A stretch of 64,000 bases of DNA from Trypanosoma brucei (GCA_000002445.1 CM000207.1:1984001-2048000), one strand, 5' to 3'; shown: positions 44,958 to 54,011, numbered from the stretch's first letter. The notes: generated from the letters alone by a model not told the origin. Numbers and translations: made by a program.

Positions 44958-45809
44958 ATGGGATACAGGTTGTTGCGTGACAATGTCTTCAAGGCGAGTT
45001 GTGCCAAAGACTCCGACGAGCTTCGAGCGCGGCGAGAGCCGACGATGTTATACAAAGAGGATCAACTAGTTGCCCCAGCGTCAGGCACTGAGCGACGCTA
45101 TACATTGGTACTTGATTTAGACGAAACTGTAATATATGCTCGCGAGGGTCCCCTTTATGCTCGCGCATATTTGAAGGAGTTACTTTCTTTCATAAGGAAA
45201 AACTTTGAAGTTATTGTATGGACAGCCGGTGAGCGGGAGTATGCCGAATGCATCTTGGAAGAGATAAATATACGCAATACAGTTCGACACCTCATACACC
45301 GCCACAAAACTTGGTTCAGTTTTGATGATTATACGAAGGATTTGACAAAGCTCGGACGAAACTTGGACTACGTTATCATTATCGAAAATTCCCCGGACTG
45401 CGTTCGCACGAACCCACAGAACGGTATTATTGTCGATGACTTCAGAGTGAGCCAAACCCCACCCATGGAAGAAGCGGAAGCAGCATGGGAGGGAGACGGA
45501 AATAATAGAGAAAGGAAGGCTGGAAGCAGGAGCGACAGCAAAACACGACGTCAGGTGACAGATCGAACTCTCCTTCTCCTAAGGGAAGTATTAAAGGCGA
45601 TGGTAGAGAGTGGTGAAACGGTCCCTGATTTTCTTGCAAAGTGCCCGTTATTAACTCAACGGCGCGTCATAGGTTCTGACGGTAGCCAAATTCAAACATA
45701 TCATCTCGGGACCCGCCGCAAACGAGGGATACCTCAACTGTGCGCCTCATCACCTAAACGAAGGCGGGTAACGAAGGAATCGGCTCCCGGTGCCACCTGC
45801 ACGTCATAA
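44958..45809 (+). CDS. FCP1/SCP (NIF-like) HAD-family phosphatase
   Basis: DxDxT motif in LVLDLDETVIYA. VIVWTAGEREYA and IIIENSP match the CTD-small-phosphatase fold. This is the last + strand ORF of the array. Confidence 0.85.
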   Translation: MGYRLLRDNVFKASCAKDSDELRARREPTMLYKEDQLVAPASGTERRYTLVLDLDETVIYAREGPLYARAYLKELLSFIRKNFEVIVWTAGEREYAECILEEINIRNTVRHLIHRHKTWFSFDDYTKDLTKLGRNLDYVIIIENSPDCVRTNPQNGIIVDDFRVSQTPPMEEAEAAWEGDGNNRERKAGSRSDSKTRRQVTDRTLLLLREVLKAMVESGETVPDFLAKCPLLTQRRVIGSDGSQIQTYHLGTRRKRGIPQLCASSPKRRRVTKESAPGATCTS

Positions 45810-45954
45810 ATGTTGGTCGCTGAGCGGATGGCCCACCTGAAAGAAAGAGAGAGAAGGTGGGAAGGATAAATCAGAGAGGGAGTTTTCCTCGCTGCGCCTT
45901 TACCCTTCTAATATTGTTATTCTTGATCTATATCTATTTATAAAGATATATTGC

Positions 45955-45972
45955 ATATATATATATATATAT
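45955..45972. repeat. (AT)n microsatellite
   Basis: Alternating AT run about 18 bp long. Confidence 0.9.
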
Positions 45973-47728
45973 TATTGGGGGAAAGTGACACAATTTAACA
46001 CAAAGATTAGGTGTTATGTGTCGTTGTCTCATGGAAAAGTTGCTTCGCCTCACAGTTCATTAAAAAAAAGGATGGGATTGAAGTATCTTTCCACCAACAA
46101 GTATTTAATAATAAAAGAAAGAAAAGAGGGTGTAGATTACAAAACCCGGGTGTTGAGACGAACGTGGGTACGCCTGCCTGCGCATGAGTAAACTTGATTA
46201 TACCTTCGTACACTGAGAGTTTTTGCACATGACGCTTTGTAACTAATATTGTGTTGTCTCCTCTAGCTCTCCTTCCACTTGTTCTTTAGCATATTTCGTA
46301 TGTCGCTGGATCCGGTTTGTTCGATTTTACTTTGCGAGAGTTCGATGGGGGGCTGACGTCCGCTGGCAGGGAACGTAATTGTTGAACCTGAGGAATTTGC
46401 ATTCGGTGAAACTGTTGTTGGGCGGTCTTCGCTTTCAACTGCTGTATCTTTTGGTCTGGGCCCTTGAGTTGTTTTCGTTGTTGTAAGTTGTATGGGTCCG
46501 CCCTTCGTGGGGATTTTGCCCGCTGGGAGGTTCCACTACTCGGGTTGGAGGGCTGTGACTGATCTGTGGTCGATGTGATTCCTGTTTTGGTAGTGTGTTA
46601 AGCTGGAATCCCAGGTGAGCTAAATAGGCGTTTTTCCAGTTGGTCAATCCGGTTATAAAGTTGCTGGACTTGCTTTCGTATCGCCGCCGCTTTTTTCACG
46701 TTCCTGTTCCGCGTTACGGTGGCACTGTTCCACTCGTTGGGTTTCGCTGCTTCTGTGGATAAGGTATGCTGTTATGGCTACTGCCTATGTTACGCAAAAA
46801 AAAAAAATAGCACAAAAGGTGACACAGCGGGACCGGCTACAGCGACTGCCGTTTTGCGAACTATCTGTTACCTGTGATACGGCTATATAGATCCTGTGCC
46901 TTTAAGGGTAGTGGCCCGATTGGAGATTGAAAGCGTATCTTGCGAAGTGTTTTGGGGCCTCCAACAGTTATCCTCATCGAGGTGTTAATGCCCGAAAAAT
47001 GGCGGTCACGCGCTCACACCGCGCCCACTAAAAATTCGCCGCTAGACACTAAGCGGGAAGATGCGGACCGAGCTTAAAGGAGTGTTGTGTTGTTCGAGCT
47101 AAAACAACCCTAGCGCTCTGTGTGTATCCAGTTCTTATTACTTTCTTGTTTGTGTCTTCTGCACCAATCCATCAAGTTATATAGAAGGCCATATATGCGT
47201 GGTTCATGGTTATTATCATAGGCAATCCATTCACGGTGCTCACGATATGGGTGTCTTCATCTCAAATCTCTCTGACAAACTGTCACGTTGGTAAGAAGTA
47301 TAGTCTATTCTACACCTATCAAAGAGCAGGGCGCCCGACGGTATTGTCATCACTTCGCTGGTCCAAAGATTTTGTAGTAGATAAGCTTGAGATACTGTGA
47401 GCACATAATGTATAGTGTGGTGCGGACACTCACCTCCTTTAAAGAAACTTGGCGGTATACAAGCTGTAGTCTGTGTAATATGTTTGCATTCACGGCTATC
47501 TTGTTCAGAAATATGTGCAATCTGACCAGTGATACTTTCTTTCTGCGAGATGGCTCATTGGCAGGATTGAGTGCTGAGGGAGCGGAGTAAAAGTGCCACA
47601 TTATTTTTTTTTTAATTACGTAAGTCGTTGGTGGTGATTGCTACTATAGCGTTCAGTTCTTCATTTTGTTTTTTTTCTCTTTTACCATGGCGTATCGTAG
47701 GACTCTGTTGTCAATTGCAAAAGCAATT

Positions 47729-47730
<2 letters not shown>

Positions 47731-47778
<48 letters not shown>
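47731..47778. repeat. (GTT)16 trinucleotide microsatellite
   Basis: 16 perfect GTT units. This produces the poly-Leu pseudo-ORF at 47666-47848. Confidence 0.95.
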
Positions 47779-47779
<1 letters not shown>

Positions 47780-48301
47780 TGGGGGCCACTGAATGGAGTG
47801 AAACGGCGAGTGTGCGTTTTGTGGCTTCCGCTTCTGCACTGGTTATAAGCATGGTATCATTATAGATGCTGTCAGGGTCCCATTATTCACCATAAGCATG
47901 GAAGTCTTTCGGAGATTGGGCGTCACTCACTGTAGCAAACCATCTTTATGTACTTTTATCACTAATGATAGCCATATCAGGTGATTGTTGTGTGATCGGT
48001 TCCGGGTGGAGCGACTTTCGAGGATTGTTTGTCTTAACGATCTTCCATAAATCTTTAAGGGTCCGTCGCATCGAGTTGTTGAGGATATCATCTTAGTCAA
48101 TTTTGCGGTTTTGTCACCAGTGAGTCAAGCGTCTTCGTAGCGACTTGACTGTATATACGTAACGAAGCCAATTAACACCGAGTGTAGATGCCACTGAGCG
48201 GAATTTTGACCAGAGTTTTTCGAGTTCGATTACTTTTAGCGTCCTGGGGATAGATTCGTCCCCTGTTAGATGAGCTCGTGTTCTTGTTAAAGTTCTATCC
48301 C

Positions 48302-48999
48302 CTATGTGTACGGTATGTTTGTTTCTGTCCCATTTGATGCCGATATAGCCGTATTGTCATCTATACTCCGTTTCGCCATAGGTAACACGGGTTTCTCGGG
48401 CTCTCTTGTTTGTACATTTGTATACACATCCGCGGACTTTGTGGTAGGGGGCGTAATTCGTATGTCGTGGATCCACACGTCGATGATTTTTTGGACGTGG
48501 GGGAGTAGTTGCTCGTCCGTTCGTACGATACGCGGGTCCTCGGCTAGGACTAATAACAATAACTGCATAATTTCCAGTGATCCTACATAGCCGGTAGACA
48601 GCCTCGTGAATTCGTACGCTACTCCATCTTCATCAAAAAACCCAAAGTTTATCTGGGCGCGTGTTGATAATTCATCTTGGAAGGCCGCCGCCTCAAGGCC
48701 CATTGTAAGTGCTGGTGGTGCCCATACCCTAGATAGCAACTCCTGTTTAAAATATAGGCATAAGCTCGGACAATAACCATCTGCATATACTTCATCGTTA
48801 ATTGCTTGTGGCCATAATATCATTCGCCGTTGCCATTTTTTCGCTTCAACTCCATAACGGTATTTGGCCACGCATAGGCTATAATATAGTGTGGATCAAC
48901 CCTACCAATAATATGTGCGTCTTCCAGTTGCCGTGCATCCTCTCACCGAGGCTTGAATGCCGTCTCACATTCGATAATTATGGCATTGTCCTTGGGCAT
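48302..48999 (-). pseudogene. decayed ORF of unknown family (in-frame stop plus frameshift)
   Basis: A - strand ATG at 48999 is preceded by a polypyrimidine tract (complement of 49026-49046) and AG. The reading MPKDNAIIIECETAFKPR hits TGA at 48943-48945 and continues in the same frame as EDARQLEDAHIIGRVDPHYIIAYAWPNTV. The frame then changes at the A6/T6 run (48836-48841) into the 189-aa track ORF, whose own listed start is GTG. Confidence 0.55.
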
Positions 49000-49210
49000 C
49001 CTTTACAGTGCGCTCCATCTTTTTTAAAAAAAAACAAGAGAAATATACACATCCGTTGTCGAAACCGAGGACACGTCCATACAATCAATTGGAAGACGTC
49101 TGCCCCTCTCCTTTTCTCTTGATTCGTCATGCTTCCGGGAGGGGGACCTATGGCTGGGCAAACCAGTTAGGAGACGGCAATCGGACGACAATATGTCATG
49201 ACATGTAATA

Positions 49211-49628
49211 TCACGCAGATGCCAGGTCCGAGTAAATCCAGTCTATGCCGTTTCCAGTGCATGGGACGCCGTTTTGCACTTCCATCATTGTCTCGTCGAT
49301 TTGGTCCAGTCGTTCGGTGATGCGAGTTCGCCCGTTTCTAAGAGACATAAGCGGTTCTTTGAGGTTGGCGAGGCGGTTTTTGACACCCTGCAATTCCTCG
49401 CAGGATATCTTAATGCCTTTAATTTGGTTAATCGTATTGGCATCCAGACGGTTGATGGATTTAACTAACTCGTCCCAGTGTCCGTGTACGACCGTATTTA
49501 GAATCTCTGGACCGACCGAGTGAGTAAGAGAGTGAACCAGTTGAGAGGTCTCGCCGACTGTGATCGACGGTCGCTTTATTTGGGTACGGCGACTCTCACG
49601 AAAGCAATAAGAAAAGTGCAAAACGCAT
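49211..49628 (-). pseudogene. ATG-less coiled-coil-like ORF, possible gene remnant
   Basis: The track ORF starts with TTG, and its first in-frame ATG is at codon 92. An out-of-frame ATG at 49628 (MRFALFLLLS then stop) could be joined to it by a 1-nt indel in the T runs. The sequence is helical and heptad-like (LVKSINRLDANTINQIKGIKISCEELQGVKNRLANLKE). Confidence 0.35.
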
Positions 49629-51523
49629 ATTCACATTCAACGGCTCGCGTTGGCCGGAAAATTCTGGAGGGAACGCAGTTTGTCAGCACGTAGTTAACGT
49701 GCGGGGGGCGGTGCTGTGCGAACTGTGCTTATGATGCTTTATAAAATGATATAAACCAGGCGAGATCTGCATTCATGAAGACCGTCTGTTTCCGGATCGT
49801 GGGGTAGCCGGCGTGTGTGGTGGATGGAACCCTGACCCGCGCGTGGGAAGGCGGTGCAACGCGACCAGATCAAGCAGCTTGCGGGCGTTGCTGACTAATA
49901 GTTGTTAAGAGGCAAACCTGTTGGTTTGGAGGACTTTGGGGCGCACCCGGGTGGAGATGTTTCAGATGCGGAAGGGTTGGAAGAGTTGGAAGGGAGATGC
50001 GAATCCATCATCTTACGCGAAGTGGGAGGCACGAAAAGGAAGCACGGCAACTGTAGCAAAAGCAACGTGAATGCCAGTGGTGTGTTTGCGTTGTTTCCGC
50101 GGCGCTGGAAAGAGTGCAAAGACCGGAAAAATAGAGTTGCGGTTCATGTAAAACCGTATGCGTGCAATGCCCGGTAGTGAAGCAGGATTTAAGAAAAAAA
50201 AAGAGAGATAAACATGCGGGGAGGAAGTTTACGAGTTCAACATGTGAAAGGTGTTTCGTAGCAGGGGCTCTGATAATGCACATCAACCTCGTGAATATGC
50301 ACGGCCCCGTGGCACCGCTAAAGGGACTACGAGCAGTGGAGGGAAAGTGGAGTTAGCCGTAGCCGCGCCGGTGTTGAAACCAAAATAAAAAAAAAGGATG
50401 ACATGGAGGTAACAGTTAAGGAAGGAGAGGATAGAGAGAACAGGGTGGGGTTGGAATAAAATGTTCCTAGTAAACTTTTGATGTTCACGGGGCACGTGGG
50501 ACTCCAAAGAGTAAGGAGAGGTGCGCACTTAAGGCACACACAAGAAAAATGCATACTGAATCCGATTGCGCGCTCCGAGGGGTTTCCTGACGCTTTTATA
50601 AGGAAGTGGAAAGTGTGAAGTGAAACCCACCAGTGCCCCATACTGCGGCTAAACGTAAGCGAGGCGAGTTGGTCTAAAAGGTTTAGTAGGAAGTACACAC
50701 GGCGATGGAAAGAAGGACGTTTACAACAAATTGAAGTTGGGCATCCAAGGATTGCTGAGCCACTTGCCCGAATGCACTGCCGTGGAGAAGCTGAAGATGA
50801 AGCATGAACTAATAGGCTTGACGAAGAAAGTGTCTGATGGGTTCTCTGCCTGTGCTCCCCAGCAGAGAAGGCCCAGACGAATAGAGAAAAAAAAACTCAG
50901 CGAAAAAGAAATTCAATCTAAAAAGAGAAGGGGGTTATCTTCTCACAGGGGGAATACCGACCATCGGAATTGCCACCTTTGGAGTTTTTTTTTGTTAAAA
51001 AAGGGATATAAATATTCTCTTATCTTTGAATGCAGCATTGCCTTTGAGAACTTGAAGAAAAAAAAAGTAGCGAAAGAGGTATTTCAGTTCTTTGCGAAAA
51101 CACAAGTATGTAAGAAAACTCAAGTGCGAAGAGGCCAGTGGTGACAAACACACATATGAAGACCATAAAATTAAGGCTCCTTGTCATCGTGTTCAAGTAC
51201 GGCAAAACAGTTGCTTGCTGATACGTTTACTATTTAAAAATAAAAACATTTTCTTTTTTGCAAAAATAACACAACTACTGCTAAGAAGGTAAACAAGCTG
51301 TTTTACGGGCGTGTCGTCCCTCTGCCGGCATTCCAAACCCTCAAACGAATATTTTGGTTAGAAGGAGCGAATACGCGGCGATGGGATGTATGTCTTTTGA
51401 AAATAAATAAAAAAAAATAAAGAAGTTAAGTGCACACTAGTGCTTTGGAAAAAAAAAAAAATAATAACAATAATAGTAAAAGGATCAGAAAATAGTCCTC
51501 ATTTACATATCCAACACGCACCG

Positions 51524-52093
51524 TTATGACATCATTAACATCGCGGAAACTAAGAGCAGCAATGGAACAACGTTTGTGCTTAACGATGCCGCCAACACCT
51601 CTGTGCCACCTCCATTGGACTCACACTCTCCACCGTCTACGCACGTGTCGGTCTTCGTTACTTCCGTTACATCTTCGGGATCTTCGATGTCATCCTTCTG
51701 CAGGCCATCATCATCACTTTTGACAGCAGGGCTTTTTGTGTCAACATTTGTTCCCTCAACTGCTCCTTTGGTGCCTGAGTTCCCCCCATTCCCCTCTTGA
51801 AGGTTGTTGTCATCACTTTTGTTGGTCGGACCTTTGGGTTTGGCACCTGCTTCTTCATCACTTTTGCTGCCATCGGGATATTCCATATCTTTCTCATACG
51901 GGATGCTGGCCTCCTCCTCTTCTTCTTCTTCTACGTCAGGCGGATCCTCAATGTCTCCTCTACTAACGCCAGGATTGTTGAGGAATTTATTCACCAGCCC
52001 TGCTGCTGCCCCCTTTGCTTCCACTTCTCCATTTAAAAGAGAGCCATTCATGAGCATCGCAACCAAGTATGCCAAAAGAGCCGTTAGCCTCAT
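51524..52093 (-). CDS. small acidic secreted protein, putatively GPI-anchored
   Basis: True ATG start. N-terminal signal-like MRLTALLAYLVAMLMNGSLL. D/E-rich body containing E7 and two DIEDPxDV motifs. The C-terminus ...GGGTEVLAASLSTNVVPLLLLVSAMLMMS has small residues followed by a hydrophobic tail, as in GPI signals. Confidence 0.7.
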   Translation of the reverse strand: MRLTALLAYLVAMLMNGSLLNGEVEAKGAAAGLVNKFLNNPGVSRGDIEDPPDVEEEEEEEASIPYEKDMEYPDGSKSDEEAGAKPKGPTNKSDDNNLQEGNGGNSGTKGAVEGTNVDTKSPAVKSDDDGLQKDDIEDPEDVTEVTKTDTCVDGGECESNGGGTEVLAASLSTNVVPLLLLVSAMLMMS

Positions 52094-52842
52094 CTATTCT
52101 TTTTTCTCTTTTTTTTCGCGTCCCAATGTTGCCTTATCTTGATTTAATTATTTATTTTGAAATAAATACGGGGAGAGCACACCAGGCATTTATATCGAAG
52201 GAATGCTCCCAGAAAAAGTTGGTAACTATCAATGTGAGGCTGTATCAAAAGCAATGTTTGTCCAACCCAAAGGTTTGGTACGATTTGGACAAACTTCCGC
52301 CCCTCCGCTATGCTGAGTTTGTCTCCCACATTCCGTGGGGAATGGACCAGGCCGTGATGAAACTACGGCGGTTCCAGAACCCCCCCCCAAAGGGAAAATG
52401 TTACGGATGCAGCCTCTTTTTGTGTAAAATGTGAAAAAAGTTTTTCGAAAACATGCTTTGAAAGACGATATATGGTTGCGAATTCTCTCCCCCTCCCCCC
52501 CCCCAAAAGACCACATTAACCCTTCGCAGCTGGTCAAATACTCAGGGGTAACTCGTCGTCTTCCCCAGTGCATGCGTTTGCGCGTGTCGGCAGCTGTGGC
52601 GGAGCGTCGATGTCCCTAGTGGGTGCTCGCGTGGCTCAATGCGGAGGTGGGGATAAGACCGCATGATGCGGGAATGTAAGACTCTGACTGGGGACATCAT
52701 TATAAACAACCCTCCCCTCCATGCCTTCAAAAAACGCAAACAGGGTTACACCTCCAACGCCCATGTCGCAAACGAAGGAGCGAAGCCTTGCTGATTTCGG
52801 TTCCAGGAACGATACCATACAAATTTTTAGTGTTGACGCGCG

Positions 52843-52913
52843 GCGCAGTTGGTCTAGTGGTAGAATTCTCGCCTGCCACGCGGGAGGCCCGGGTTCGATT
52901 CCCGGACTGCGCA
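52843..52913 (+). tRNA. tRNA-Gly(GCC): tRNA-Gly (anticodon GCC)
   Basis: 71-nt cloverleaf. The acceptor is GCGCAGT/ACTGCGC plus discriminator A. The anticodon arm is CTCGC-CTGCCAC-GCGGG. The T arm is CCGGG-TTCGATT-CCCGG. The body AGTGGTAGAATTCTCGCCTGCCACGCGGGAGGCCCGGGTTCGATTCCCGG matches canonical eukaryotic tRNA-Gly(GCC). Confidence 0.97.
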
Positions 52914-52916
52914 TCG

Positions 52917-52921
52917 TTTTT
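52917..52921 (+). terminator. Pol III T-run terminator of tRNA-Gly
   Basis: TTTTT begins 4 nt after the discriminator base. Confidence 0.8.
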
Positions 52922-53657
52922 CTGCCGCATGCAGAACCCACCATTTTTTTTTACTTATTTTGGAACGAACTTGCTATTTTTTTTTGTTTGGTTGCTGTTG
53001 TTTGTTTGCCATCATTTCGCTACGGTGACGATAATTCCCCGCCACGCTTTGTCTCCACATTTGCAAAACTTACGCTAACGGAGGGTGCTGTAGAAATATG
53101 AGCGTCCCCCGGAGGCACCGCAAGTCCGCTTGGTACATCAAACCTCAGAGACGAGAAGGGACGAAACTCGTTTAGACCCGATGTTGGTCGGAACGGGCCA
53201 TTCACACAGGTTTCACCGTCGCCGACCCAGCTCACCATACAAAACTACCCCTCCCGCTTAACATCCACGGACACCGAGACGCTCATATGATAATAACTAC
53301 GATTTCGCAGTTGCTGTTTCACAGCGTGTATGAACTGTTTCAAACCACACACGCCAAATGACGCGACACAACAAACTAATAAACACACAGTAAAAAAAAT
53401 GAATGAGCATCCAACTGCGCAAATTCATTGATAGAGAACGCCTGTAAACAAAACCACAAACAATGCAGCCATGTCCACACTAGAAGCGTATAGCACTGTT
53501 ACCTCTCACTAAAGTGTTAAACGGGAACTGCAGCTGCTGCGCTACAGAGTCGATAGTCACAGCGTCCCTCGGTGTTTGCATCCGGAGAGATGATGACGGG
53601 AGGGAACCATTTCCAGCTTCTTTTTCCCACTTCTTTTTTTTTCAGGAGCTTGTAACG

Positions 53658-54011
53658 CTATGCACTCTCTCCGGAGCGTCGCGAGACCTCCAATTCCTCC
53701 TCAACGGTGTCCACATCGAACCCAAGACCCCTCATTTCCTCAAGGTACCGTTGCGTTGGATCACCACTGGCGTCCATTGCTTCTTTTCGTGAGCGCTGCC
53801 TCCGCATGGCATACCCGAAGGCGGCCACACCACCGCCAAACACAAAAAATGCACGCAAGCCGCGCCACGCCAATCCCCGGAGAATCTGTGTGTTTTGCTC
53901 AAAGCACTCCGAACCAATCTTCTCCGCGATTCGCATATTCTGCCGCGTCCGCTCATCAAGCCCCAACGGCGGTTTTTCACCACCACCACCACCATCCCCG
54001 CTCATTGCCAT
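53658..54011 (-). CDS. small single-pass membrane protein, function unknown
   Basis: The track start at 54050 is GTG; the first ATG is at 54011 (MAMSGDGGGGGEK...). There is one hydrophobic Gly-rich segment (AFFVFGGGVAAFGYAM) and an acidic C-terminus. The overlapping + strand ORF at 53660-54250 is low-complexity His/Pro/Arg-rich and is rejected. Confidence 0.6.
   Translation of the reverse strand: MAMSGDGGGGGEKPPLGLDERTRQNMRIAEKIGSECFEQNTQILRGLAWRGLRAFFVFGGGVAAFGYAMRRQRSRKEAMDASGDPTQRYLEEMRGLGFDVDTVEEELEVSRRSGESA

What the first reader, a model, noticed from the sequence alone, without database searches (positions are those of the whole stretch)
51524..52093. Isolated acidic protein with signal-peptide and GPI-anchor-like ends, between decayed genes and a tRNA
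The 189-aa product has a hydrophobic N-terminal leader and an extremely acidic body containing E7. It has two copies of DIEDPxDV, repeated KSDD/KSDE units and an RGD tripeptide. The C-terminus has small residues followed by a hydrophobic tail, typical of GPI-addition signals. It is flanked by about 1.9 kb of ORF-free sequence downstream and the tRNA upstream, so it is set apart from the housekeeping array. Small acidic GPI proteins in trypanosomes are typically stage-specific surface coat components. This one matches no family I can name.
Basis: partly seen in the sequence, partly recalled or inferred. Interest (0 to 1): 0.55.

Follow-up and report, generated by a model that had tools for sequence, protein, structure and literature searches.

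The report
Orphan acidic procyclic-stage secretory protein gene
This is a real, already annotated but uncharacterised Trypanosoma brucei-only gene (Tb927.9.13200) whose mRNA is switched on in the tsetse-midgut stage. It encodes a small, very acidic, disordered protein whose two hydrophobic ends look like a signal peptide and a GPI-anchor signal, so it is probably a minor insect-stage surface protein, but nobody has shown that.

Summary
The ORF and every listed motif are present as described. The window is T. brucei chromosome 9, and the ORF is Tb09.211.4070 = Tb927.9.13200, annotated as "hypothetical" or "T. brucei spp.-specific" protein.

- **Homology:** two searches (a word-indexed one of 5.8 billion proteins and an exhaustive one of 1.84 billion cluster representatives) found only the Trypanozoon copies. 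Pfam found nothing.
- **Expression:** published RNA-seq shows an RBP10-bound mRNA with two UA(U)6 motifs in its 3'UTR. It is about 16-fold higher in procyclic than bloodstream forms, peaks in tsetse midgut forms, and rises in glucose-free medium.
- **Protein ends:** it is the only one of 89 ATG-ORFs in the window with both a hydrophobic N-terminus and an uncharged hydrophobic C-terminus. Plausible omega sites exist. The body is predicted to be coil.
- **Origin:** in T. vivax, T. cruzi, T. grayi, T. theileri and three unnamed trypanosomatids, a DHHC palmitoyltransferase gene occupies this position. T. brucei instead has about 7.85 kb of lineage-specific sequence carrying the tRNA-Gly and this gene.

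GPI anchoring and surface location are plausible but untested, and "coat component" and "decayed genes" are not supported. Interest is moderate.

The parts
51524..52093 (-). Coding sequence of Tb927.9.13200 (= Tb09.211.4070; UniProt Q38DA1), 189 aa plus TAA stop.
   Evidence: The ORF is listed. It is 100% identical to XP_827549.1 / TEOVI_000341300. The ID was mapped through the published 3'UTR sequence and the 570-nt CDS length. Codon score is 0.316 bits/codon in frame. The ORF is intact and 98% identical in T. b. gambiense and T. equiperdum.
52028..52093 (-). Signal-peptide-like N-terminus, aa 1-22: MR / LTALLAYLVAMLM / NGSLLNG, then EVEAK.
   Evidence: Kyte-Doolittle 11-residue mean reaches 2.48 over aa 3-15. 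A crude -3/-1 rule gives candidate cleavage after G22, A26 or G28. No dedicated predictor was run.
51614..52027 (-). Acidic, low-complexity, probably disordered body, aa 23-160. Contains RGD (aa 45), DIEDPPDV (51932..51955), E7 (51911..51931), DIEDPEDV (51668..51691), KSDE/KSDD units, one NKS sequon (aa 91) and Cys151/Cys157.
   Evidence: Single-sequence AlphaFold2 gives coil for residues 39-164 with mean pLDDT 54.7. pI is 4.05.
51694..51821 (-). Internal duplication: 29-nt copies at 51694-51722 and 51793-51821, 99 nt (33 codons) apart, encoding KSDDDGLQKD and KSDDNNLQEG.
   Evidence: the repeat finder family D1, 72% identity. Smith-Waterman comparison of the two halves of the body gives z = 3.6, with 3 of 500 shuffles reaching the score.
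51527..51613 (-). GPI-attachment-signal-like C-terminus, aa 161-189: small-residue cluster S159-N-G-G-G163, spacer TEVLAASLSTN, and hydrophobic tail VVPLLLLVSAMLMMS that ends the protein.
   Evidence: Omega candidates are S159, N160, G161, G162, A168 and S170, leaving 19-30 residues to be removed. The tail has mean hydropathy 2.39 and no charged residue, which is unique among 89 ORFs. AlphaFold2 predicts a helix at 165-187.
51173..51523 (-). Annotated 3'UTR (352 nt when counted from the last stop-codon base) with two UA(U)6 RBP10-binding motifs, at 51456..51463 and 51412..51419.
   Evidence: The sequence is identical to the Tb927.9.13200 3'UTR printed in supplementary file 1 of PMC5568443. Table 1 of that paper lists 2 UA(U)6 motifs, RBP10 binding, a 4-fold rise after rbp10 RNAi and 0.46-fold on RBP10 expression.
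52843..52913 (+). tRNA-Gly(GCC) gene on the opposite strand, 750 nt upstream of the ORF's ATG. A T5 run follows at 52917-52921.
   Evidence: ARAGORN. Rfam RF00005 at 59.2 bits. Described as locus chr09-I and overlapped by the 'unlikely' ORF Tb09.211.4080 in PMC2695483. Absent from the syntenic loci of all other species examined.
45810..53657 (.). About 7.85 kb of T. brucei-lineage-specific sequence between the NIF phosphatase gene (end of the plus-strand unit) and the conserved 117-aa gene. It holds the tRNA-Gly, the acidic gene, the 'unlikely' ORF 4060 and the T. brucei-specific ORF 4030. Other trypanosomatids have a DHHC palmitoyltransferase gene here.
   Evidence: Syntenic loci are. No DHHC remnant was found by tblastn. 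The interval has no protein or DNA similarity to those loci.

Best explanation
Tb927.9.13200 is a genuine, taxonomically restricted (Trypanozoon-only) protein-coding gene.

**Product.** The primary product has a cleavable N-terminal signal peptide (about aa 1-22), a polyanionic and intrinsically disordered body of about 140 residues (pI about 4), and a C-terminal hydrophobic peptide that ends the protein. The most likely reading is that it enters the ER, that its C-terminal 19-30 residues are exchanged for a GPI anchor, and that it is displayed on the plasma membrane of procyclic (tsetse-midgut) forms. There it would be a minor acidic component alongside the procyclins, analogous to them in architecture but not homologous.

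**Stage control.** Control is post-transcriptional. In bloodstream forms RBP10 binds the two UA(U)6 motifs in the 352-nt 3'UTR and suppresses the mRNA. Loss of RBP10 on differentiation lets the mRNA accumulate. It rises further when glucose is absent.

**Origin.** The gene lies in a roughly 7.85-kb lineage-specific insertion that replaced a DHHC palmitoyltransferase gene at the distal end of a polycistronic unit, next to a convergent strand-switch region and a newly acquired tRNA-Gly gene.

**Shown:** ORF, motifs, orphan status, synteny break, mRNA regulation. **Inferred:** signal-peptide cleavage, GPI anchoring, surface location, function.
For: **Identity and orphan status**
- Identity with Tb09.211.4070 / Tb927.9.13200.
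- Only the Trypanozoon cluster was found in 5.8 billion proteins and 1.84 billion representatives. Pfam found nothing.
- Nothing similar occurs in the syntenic loci of other species.

**Coding evidence**
- Codon score is 0.316 bits/codon in frame, against negative values off frame.
- The ORF is intact at the same length in three further Trypanozoon genomes, with 3-4 substitutions.
- The mRNA is on polysomes (PMC5568443).

**Secretory and GPI-like architecture**
- It is the only one of 89 ORFs with both hydrophobic ends and an uncharged hydrophobic C-terminus.
- Omega candidates with small residues at omega and omega+2 lie 19-30 residues from the end, and there is no cytoplasmic tail.
- AlphaFold2 gives helices only at 2-38 and 165-187, with coil between.

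**Regulation**
- The mRNA is RBP10-bound, 4-fold up after rbp10 RNAi, 0.46-fold with ectopic RBP10, 15.8-fold procyclic/bloodstream, with 2 UA(U)6 motifs (PMC5568443 Table 1). I located the motifs at 51456-51463 and 51412-51419.
- Stumpy 31.7 RPM rises to midgut day-3 365.6 RPM (padj 1e-11). Midgut day-28 is 558.9, proventriculus 224.1 and salivary gland 81.7 RPM (PMC8483307 S3-S5). The column order for the last two comparisons is inferred from the shared value 224.07.
- The mRNA increases in proline-grown procyclics (PMC4285177).

**Origin**
- DHHC follows the 117-aa gene in T. vivax, T. cruzi, T. grayi, T. theileri and three unnamed trypanosomatids.
- DHHC is absent from the window.
- No tRNA occurs in any of those loci.
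Against: - No dedicated signal-peptide or GPI predictor could be run, and the omega site is ambiguous (six candidates).
- No peptide, tagging or surface-labelling evidence was found in any accessible source. The held supplements are truncated, so absence there says little.
- The '# TM domains' column in PMC8483307 gives 0. That fits cleaved signals, but equally shows that TMHMM did not call either end.
- AlphaFold2 was run on a single sequence, so the 'disorder' call is weak.
- Young orphan ORFs can be transcribed, and even loaded on ribosomes, without producing a functional protein.
- T. congolense, the closest outgroup, could not be examined at the DNA level.
Confidence: 0.55

Rival explanations
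1. The protein enters the secretory pathway but is not GPI-anchored. Either the C-terminal hydrophobic stretch acts as a transmembrane anchor with no cytoplasmic tail, or the protein is retained or degraded in the ER, endosomes or flagellar pocket, or it is released as a soluble acidic protein.
For: The N-terminal leader and the C-terminal helix at 165-187 are equally compatible with a membrane span. The omega site is ambiguous. There is no experimental evidence for an anchor.
Against: The protein ends immediately after the hydrophobic stretch, with no basic stop-transfer residues. A cluster of small residues (SNGGG, AAS) sits at the canonical distance upstream. From general knowledge of GPI signals, this is the classical GPI-signal layout rather than a type I anchor.
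Confidence: 0.2
2. The locus is a young, lineage-specific transcript whose ORF yields no functional protein. It would be a proto-gene, or an mRNA-like RNA caught in the RBP10/U-rich-element regulon by the chance composition of its 3' region. On this reading the signal-like ends are fortuitous.
For: There is no homologue anywhere. The gene sits in a lineage-specific insertion among ORFs annotated 'unlikely' or species-specific. Stop-free stretches of 189-197 codons also occur nearby in the interval: 50330..50896 does not look coding, while 48305..48895 belongs to the annotated ORF Tb09.211.4030 and has a coding-like score. No protein evidence was found.
Against: The codon score is at or above the range of the window's bona fide genes and is strongly frame-specific. 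The combination of both hydrophobic ends is unique among 89 ORFs. The ORF is intact in four Trypanozoon genomes. The mRNA is polysome-associated and abundant, at about 370-560 RPM in midgut forms.
Confidence: 0.15
3. It is a highly diverged member of the procyclin (EP/GPEET) family or of the BARP/GARP/CESP (Fam50) family.
For: It shares their overall plan (signal peptide, acidic body, GPI-like end), their procyclic-stage expression, and membership of the same RBP10 regulon as EP2.
Against: There is no Pfam hit to any family, and neither procyclins nor Fam50 proteins were retrieved by phmmer. There are no EP or GPEET repeats. The locus is on chromosome 9 inside a Pol II unit rather than at the procyclin loci (the location of those loci is from my own knowledge).
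Confidence: 0.03

Closest known systems
Procyclins (EP and GPEET; procyclic acidic repetitive proteins) of T. brucei
   Same: Both are small proteins with an N-terminal signal peptide, a strongly acidic and unstructured body, and a C-terminal hydrophobic peptide of GPI-signal type. Both have procyclic-stage mRNA. Both are repressed in bloodstream forms through U-rich 3'UTR elements bound by RBP10; EP2 is in the same Table 1 of PMC5568443.
   Different: There is no sequence homology and no EP or GPEET repeats. This gene is single-copy in a Pol II polycistronic unit on chromosome 9. Its transcript level is in the range of minor surface proteins, not coat proteins. GPI anchoring is not demonstrated.
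Species-specific predicted cell-surface singletons of the African-trypanosome cell-surface phylome (Jackson et al. 2013, PMC3605285)
   Same: It is a T. brucei-only, single-copy gene with predicted surface-type signals. The phylome paper counts 101 such T. brucei singletons outside its 79 families.
   Different: I could not verify that this gene is on that list, because the singleton tables are on a web page that is not held. By construction it cannot belong to any phylome family, since those need at least 4 homologues.
[quoted passage not shown]
   Same: It is acidic and procyclic-enriched, with comparable transcript abundance in midgut forms.
   Different: CRAM is a large repeat-containing type I membrane protein with a cytoplasmic tail (from my own knowledge). 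This protein is 189 aa with no tail and has no similarity to CRAM.

Membership tests
Procyclins (EP/GPEET) | Sequence homology to the procyclin N-terminal domain, or a Pfam procyclin model hit. | tested here: not met
   No Pfam family at E <= 0.01. phmmer over 1.84 billion representatives returned only the query's own cluster.
Procyclins (EP/GPEET) | Tandem Glu-Pro or GPEET repeats. | tested here: not met
   None are present. The acidic elements are E7, DIEDPxDV x2 and KSDD/E x3.
GPI-anchored proteins (general) | N-terminal ER signal peptide. | tested here: inconclusive
   The n-region (MR), h-region (aa 3-15, hydropathy up to 2.48) and polar c-region with small -1 residues are present. No trained predictor was available.
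GPI-anchored proteins (general) | C-terminal signal: small omega and omega+2 residues, a short polar spacer, and a hydrophobic tail of 10-20 residues that ends the protein. | tested here: inconclusive
   The layout is present, with six omega candidates 19-30 residues from the end and a 15-residue uncharged tail. No PredGPI, NetGPI or big-PI run was possible.
GPI-anchored proteins (general) | Biochemical evidence of the anchor (PI-PLC release, ethanolamine or fatty-acid labelling). | not testable with these tools
   None was found in accessible literature.
RBP10 regulon (bloodstream-form-repressed mRNAs) | UA(U)6 motif(s) in the 3'UTR. | tested here: met
   Two motifs, at 51456..51463 and 51412..51419 on the minus strand. 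This matches the count of 2 in PMC5568443 Table 1.
RBP10 regulon (bloodstream-form-repressed mRNAs) | mRNA bound by RBP10 and responsive to RBP10 dosage. | tested here: met
Taxonomically restricted (orphan) gene | No detectable homologue outside the lineage. | tested here: met
   Searches returned only Trypanozoon sequences. T. congolense proteins are in the searched database (a T. congolense NIF orthologue was returned), yet gave no hit to this protein.
Taxonomically restricted (orphan) gene | Absent from the syntenic position in outgroups. | tested here: met
   T. vivax, T. cruzi, T. grayi, T. theileri and three unnamed trypanosomatids carry DHHC there, with no similar ORF or DNA. T. congolense was not testable.

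The most novel reading that the evidence does not exclude
The gene arose within the T. brucei lineage, after its split from T. vivax. It would have arisen de novo, or from sequence now unrecognisable, inside an insertion that displaced a DHHC palmitoyltransferase gene at a transcription-unit end beside a newly acquired tRNA gene. It would then have acquired secretory and GPI signals and U-rich RBP10 sites, becoming a functional polyanionic surface protein specific to the tsetse-midgut stage. That would make it a traceable example of surface-protein gene birth at a trypanosome transcription-termination region. T. theileri has independently inserted GP63 surface-protease genes at the same unit end.
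Probability: 0.25. Interest if true: 0.6.

Novelty: new member of a known kind. Interest (0 to 1): 0.4.

Why it matters
If the protein really is GPI-anchored on procyclic forms, it adds a non-procyclin acidic component to the insect-stage surface of T. brucei. That surface is usually described as essentially procyclin only, and procyclin-null parasites are known to survive with other material exposed.

Because the gene is restricted to T. brucei and its immediate relatives, it could bear on species-specific interactions with the tsetse midgut. It is also a clean case for studying how new surface genes are born and wired into the RBP10 developmental switch.

The practical value is modest. It is a single uncharacterised gene that is already in the databases, and all functional claims remain predictions.

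Tried and rejected
- **Family searches:** Pfam on the protein and on neighbouring ORFs gave nothing for the protein. PDB sequence searches on the two 'decayed' ORFs gave only chance-level hits, E >= 0.2.
- **Literature by identifier:** the old gene ID, UniProt and RefSeq accessions gave no paper.
- **Protein or localisation evidence:**
  - The Shimogawa 2015 surface proteome is not held.
  - No supplements are held for Tinti 2019 or the GPI review.
  - The truncated supplements of TrypTag, spatial proteomics, the phylome paper and Dejung 2016 had no occurrence. This is uninformative rather than negative.
- **T. congolense synteny:** the orthologous NIF protein exists in UniRef, but no contig is on record.
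- **Procyclin homology:** rejected.
- **DHHC remnant or overprinting in the T. brucei interval:** none found by tblastn.
- **Comparison with T. equiperdum DNA:** differences are dominated by assembly gaps, and there is one synonymous change in the ORF. That is too little to test selection.
- **Bacterial promoter/terminator scan:** irrelevant for a trypanosome and at shuffle level.
- **Rfam on 45-56.5 kb:** only the tRNA.
- **SPARC paper's Tb927.9.13xxx IDs:** these are SET27, which is unrelated.

Full report
**1. The observation**

The window carries a 189-codon ATG-to-TAA ORF at 51524..52093 on the minus strand.
- E7 at residues 55-61.
- DIEDPPDV at 47 and DIEDPEDV at 135.
- KSDE at 77, and KSDD at 92 and 125.
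- RGD at 45.
- 40 acidic against 14 basic residues, pI 4.05.
- Hydrophobic stretches at residues 3-15 and 175-189, the second running to the last residue.

The KSDDxxLQ units are also a DNA-level repeat of 29 nt, 72% identical, spaced exactly 33 codons. A comparison of the two halves of the body scores z = 3.6 against shuffles.

The pattern is not what random ORFs give:
- Among 89 ATG-ORFs of at least 80 aa in all six frames of the window, 11 have a hydrophobic N-terminus. Only this one has an uncharged hydrophobic C-terminal 15-mer, and only this one has both.
- Its codon usage, scored against 21 large genes of the window, is 0.316 bits/codon in frame and -0.30/-0.67 off frame. The real genes span 0.09-0.30.
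- The RGD tripeptide alone carries no weight.

**2. What the locus is**

The protein is 100% identical to T. brucei brucei TREU927 Tb09.211.4070 (XP_827549.1, UniProt Q38DA1) and to T. equiperdum TEOVI_000341300. The T. b. gambiense copy is annotated 'T. brucei spp.-specific protein'.

I tied the old identifier to the current one, Tb927.9.13200, in two ways. The 352-nt 3'UTR printed for that gene in a supplement of PMC5568443 is identical to the reverse complement of window 51173..51524. The same supplement lists a CDS length of 570.

Three further Trypanozoon genomes keep the ORF at the same length with 3-4 substitutions.

Two searches returned only this one cluster: the word-indexed search of 5.8 billion proteins and an exhaustive phmmer of 1.84 billion cluster representatives. 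Pfam returned nothing. T. congolense proteins are in that database, so the absence of a T. congolense hit is meaningful at the protein level.

**3. Genomic setting**

Large ORFs are on the plus strand up to 45.8 kb and on the minus strand from 51.5 kb to the end. The gene therefore lies at the distal end of a minus-strand polycistronic unit that converges on a plus-strand unit. A tRNA-Gly(GCC) gene sits 750 nt upstream on the opposite strand. It has been described as locus chr09-I, overlapped by an 'unlikely' ORF (PMC2695483).

I fetched syntenic loci using orthologues of the flanking conserved genes: the 117-aa gene at 53661..54011 and the NIF phosphatase at 44958..45809.
- In T. cruzi, T. 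grayi, T. theileri, T. vivax and three unnamed trypanosomatid assemblies, the 117-aa gene is followed directly by a DHHC palmitoyltransferase gene.
- In T. cruzi, T. vivax and one unnamed species, the converging NIF gene follows within about 0.7-3.2 kb.
- None of these loci has a tRNA.
- The T. brucei window has no DHHC remnant, and its 7.85-kb interval (45810..53657) matches nothing in those loci at the protein or DNA level.

The interval also holds Tb09.211.4030, a T. brucei-specific hypothetical ORF with coding-like codon usage, and Tb09.211.4060, labelled 'unlikely'. T. congolense could not be examined.

**4. Expression and regulation (from papers)**
- In PMC5568443 Table 1 the mRNA is an RBP10 target. 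[quoted passage not shown] It is 15.8-fold higher on procyclic than on bloodstream polysomes and has two UA(U)6 motifs. I located these at 51456..51463 and 51412..51419.
- In tsetse-derived parasites (PMC8483307) it goes from 31.7 RPM in stumpy forms to 365.6 RPM in day-3 midgut forms (padj 1e-11). Values are then 558.9 RPM (midgut day 28), 224.1 RPM (proventriculus) and 81.7 RPM (salivary glands). The column order for these last comparisons is inferred from the shared value.
- It is among four unknown-function mRNAs specifically raised in proline-grown procyclics (PMC4285177).
- It is uniquely down in AMPK-alpha2-deficient cells in the RBP6 differentiation system (PMC7952579).
- Abundance is of the order of CRAM or trans-sialidase in the same table, not that of a coat protein.

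**5. Mechanism**

The layout is the classical signature of a GPI-anchored protein:
- an n-h-c leader;
- an acidic coil body (AlphaFold2 on a single sequence gives helices only at 2-38 and 165-187, mean pLDDT 54.7);
- a cluster of small residues (S159-N-G-G-G, A168-A-S) followed by a short spacer;
- a 15-residue uncharged hydrophobic tail that terminates the protein.

Six omega candidates would remove 19-30 residues.

I therefore consider a GPI-anchored, polyanionic, minor procyclic-surface protein the most likely product (about 0.55). Stage control by RBP10 through the 3'UTR motifs is well supported.

The rivals are:
- secretory but not GPI-anchored (0.2);
- a transcribed proto-gene without a functional product (0.15);
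- a diverged procyclin or Fam50 member (0.03), rejected.

No trained predictor and no protein-level data were accessible, so anchoring and localisation remain inference.

**6. Comparison with known families, and novelty**

It works like a procyclin in architecture, stage and regulon, but it fails every membership test for that family. It fits the class of species-specific predicted surface singletons counted, but not analysed, by the cell-surface phylome. That study required at least 4 homologues per family and counted 101 T. brucei singletons (PMC3605285).

The gene is already annotated and appears in expression tables. What is new here is the combined reading, together with the synteny result that it sits in a lineage-specific insertion which replaced a DHHC gene beside a newly acquired tRNA. 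I rate it a new member of a known kind, with interest 0.4.

Noticed in passing
window 45810..53657; compare L003 10360..12846 (T. cruzi) and L008 10816..12936 (T. vivax): The DHHC palmitoyltransferase gene that follows the conserved 117-aa gene in every other trypanosomatid examined is missing from T. brucei at this locus, and no remnant is detectable. About 7.85 kb of T. brucei-specific sequence takes its place. I did not check whether the DHHC gene moved elsewhere in the T. brucei genome or was lost.
   Followed up: partly
L002 11863..19428 (T. theileri): T. theileri has three GP63 (Peptidase_M8) genes plus a 116-aa N-terminal fragment inserted after the DHHC gene at the same transcription-unit end. 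The distal end of this unit therefore seems to have accepted lineage-specific surface-protein genes more than once.
   Followed up: no
window 52380..52388 and 52489..52504 (minus strand): Two long G-tracts (G9, and G10 preceded by AGGGGG) lie on the coding strand of the acidic gene, between the tRNA and its ATG. All other runs of at least 9 in the window are poly-C on the coding strand of the plus-strand unit (15 overlapping matches in 8 distinct runs, against 0.36 expected). From memory, coding-strand G-tracts are a feature reported at T. brucei Pol II start regions, which would fit re-initiation downstream of the tRNA. This was not tested.
   Followed up: partly
window 48305..48823 (-), 49214..49630 (-): Tb09.211.4030 (173 aa, 'T. 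brucei spp.-specific protein') and an upstream 139-codon open frame have coding-like codon scores (0.17 and 0.13 bits/codon) but no Pfam or PDB relatives. They may be further orphan genes or proto-genes in the same insertion.
   Followed up: partly
window 47729..47778: A perfect (TTG)16.7 microsatellite lies in the convergent strand-switch region.
   Followed up: no
window 52636..53101: Two ORFs of 102 and 126 aa overlap the tRNA-Gly gene. The literature calls the annotated one (Tb09.211.4080) 'hypothetical, unlikely'. Neither exact sequence is in the protein collection, and their codon scores are low.
   Followed up: yes
window 51400..51421: The proximal UA(U)6 motif is part of a 2.2-copy tandem (AAAAAAAATA on the plus strand, which reads UAUUUUUUUU on the mRNA). 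The RBP10 sites may therefore have arisen by slippage in a U-rich tract.
   Followed up: no
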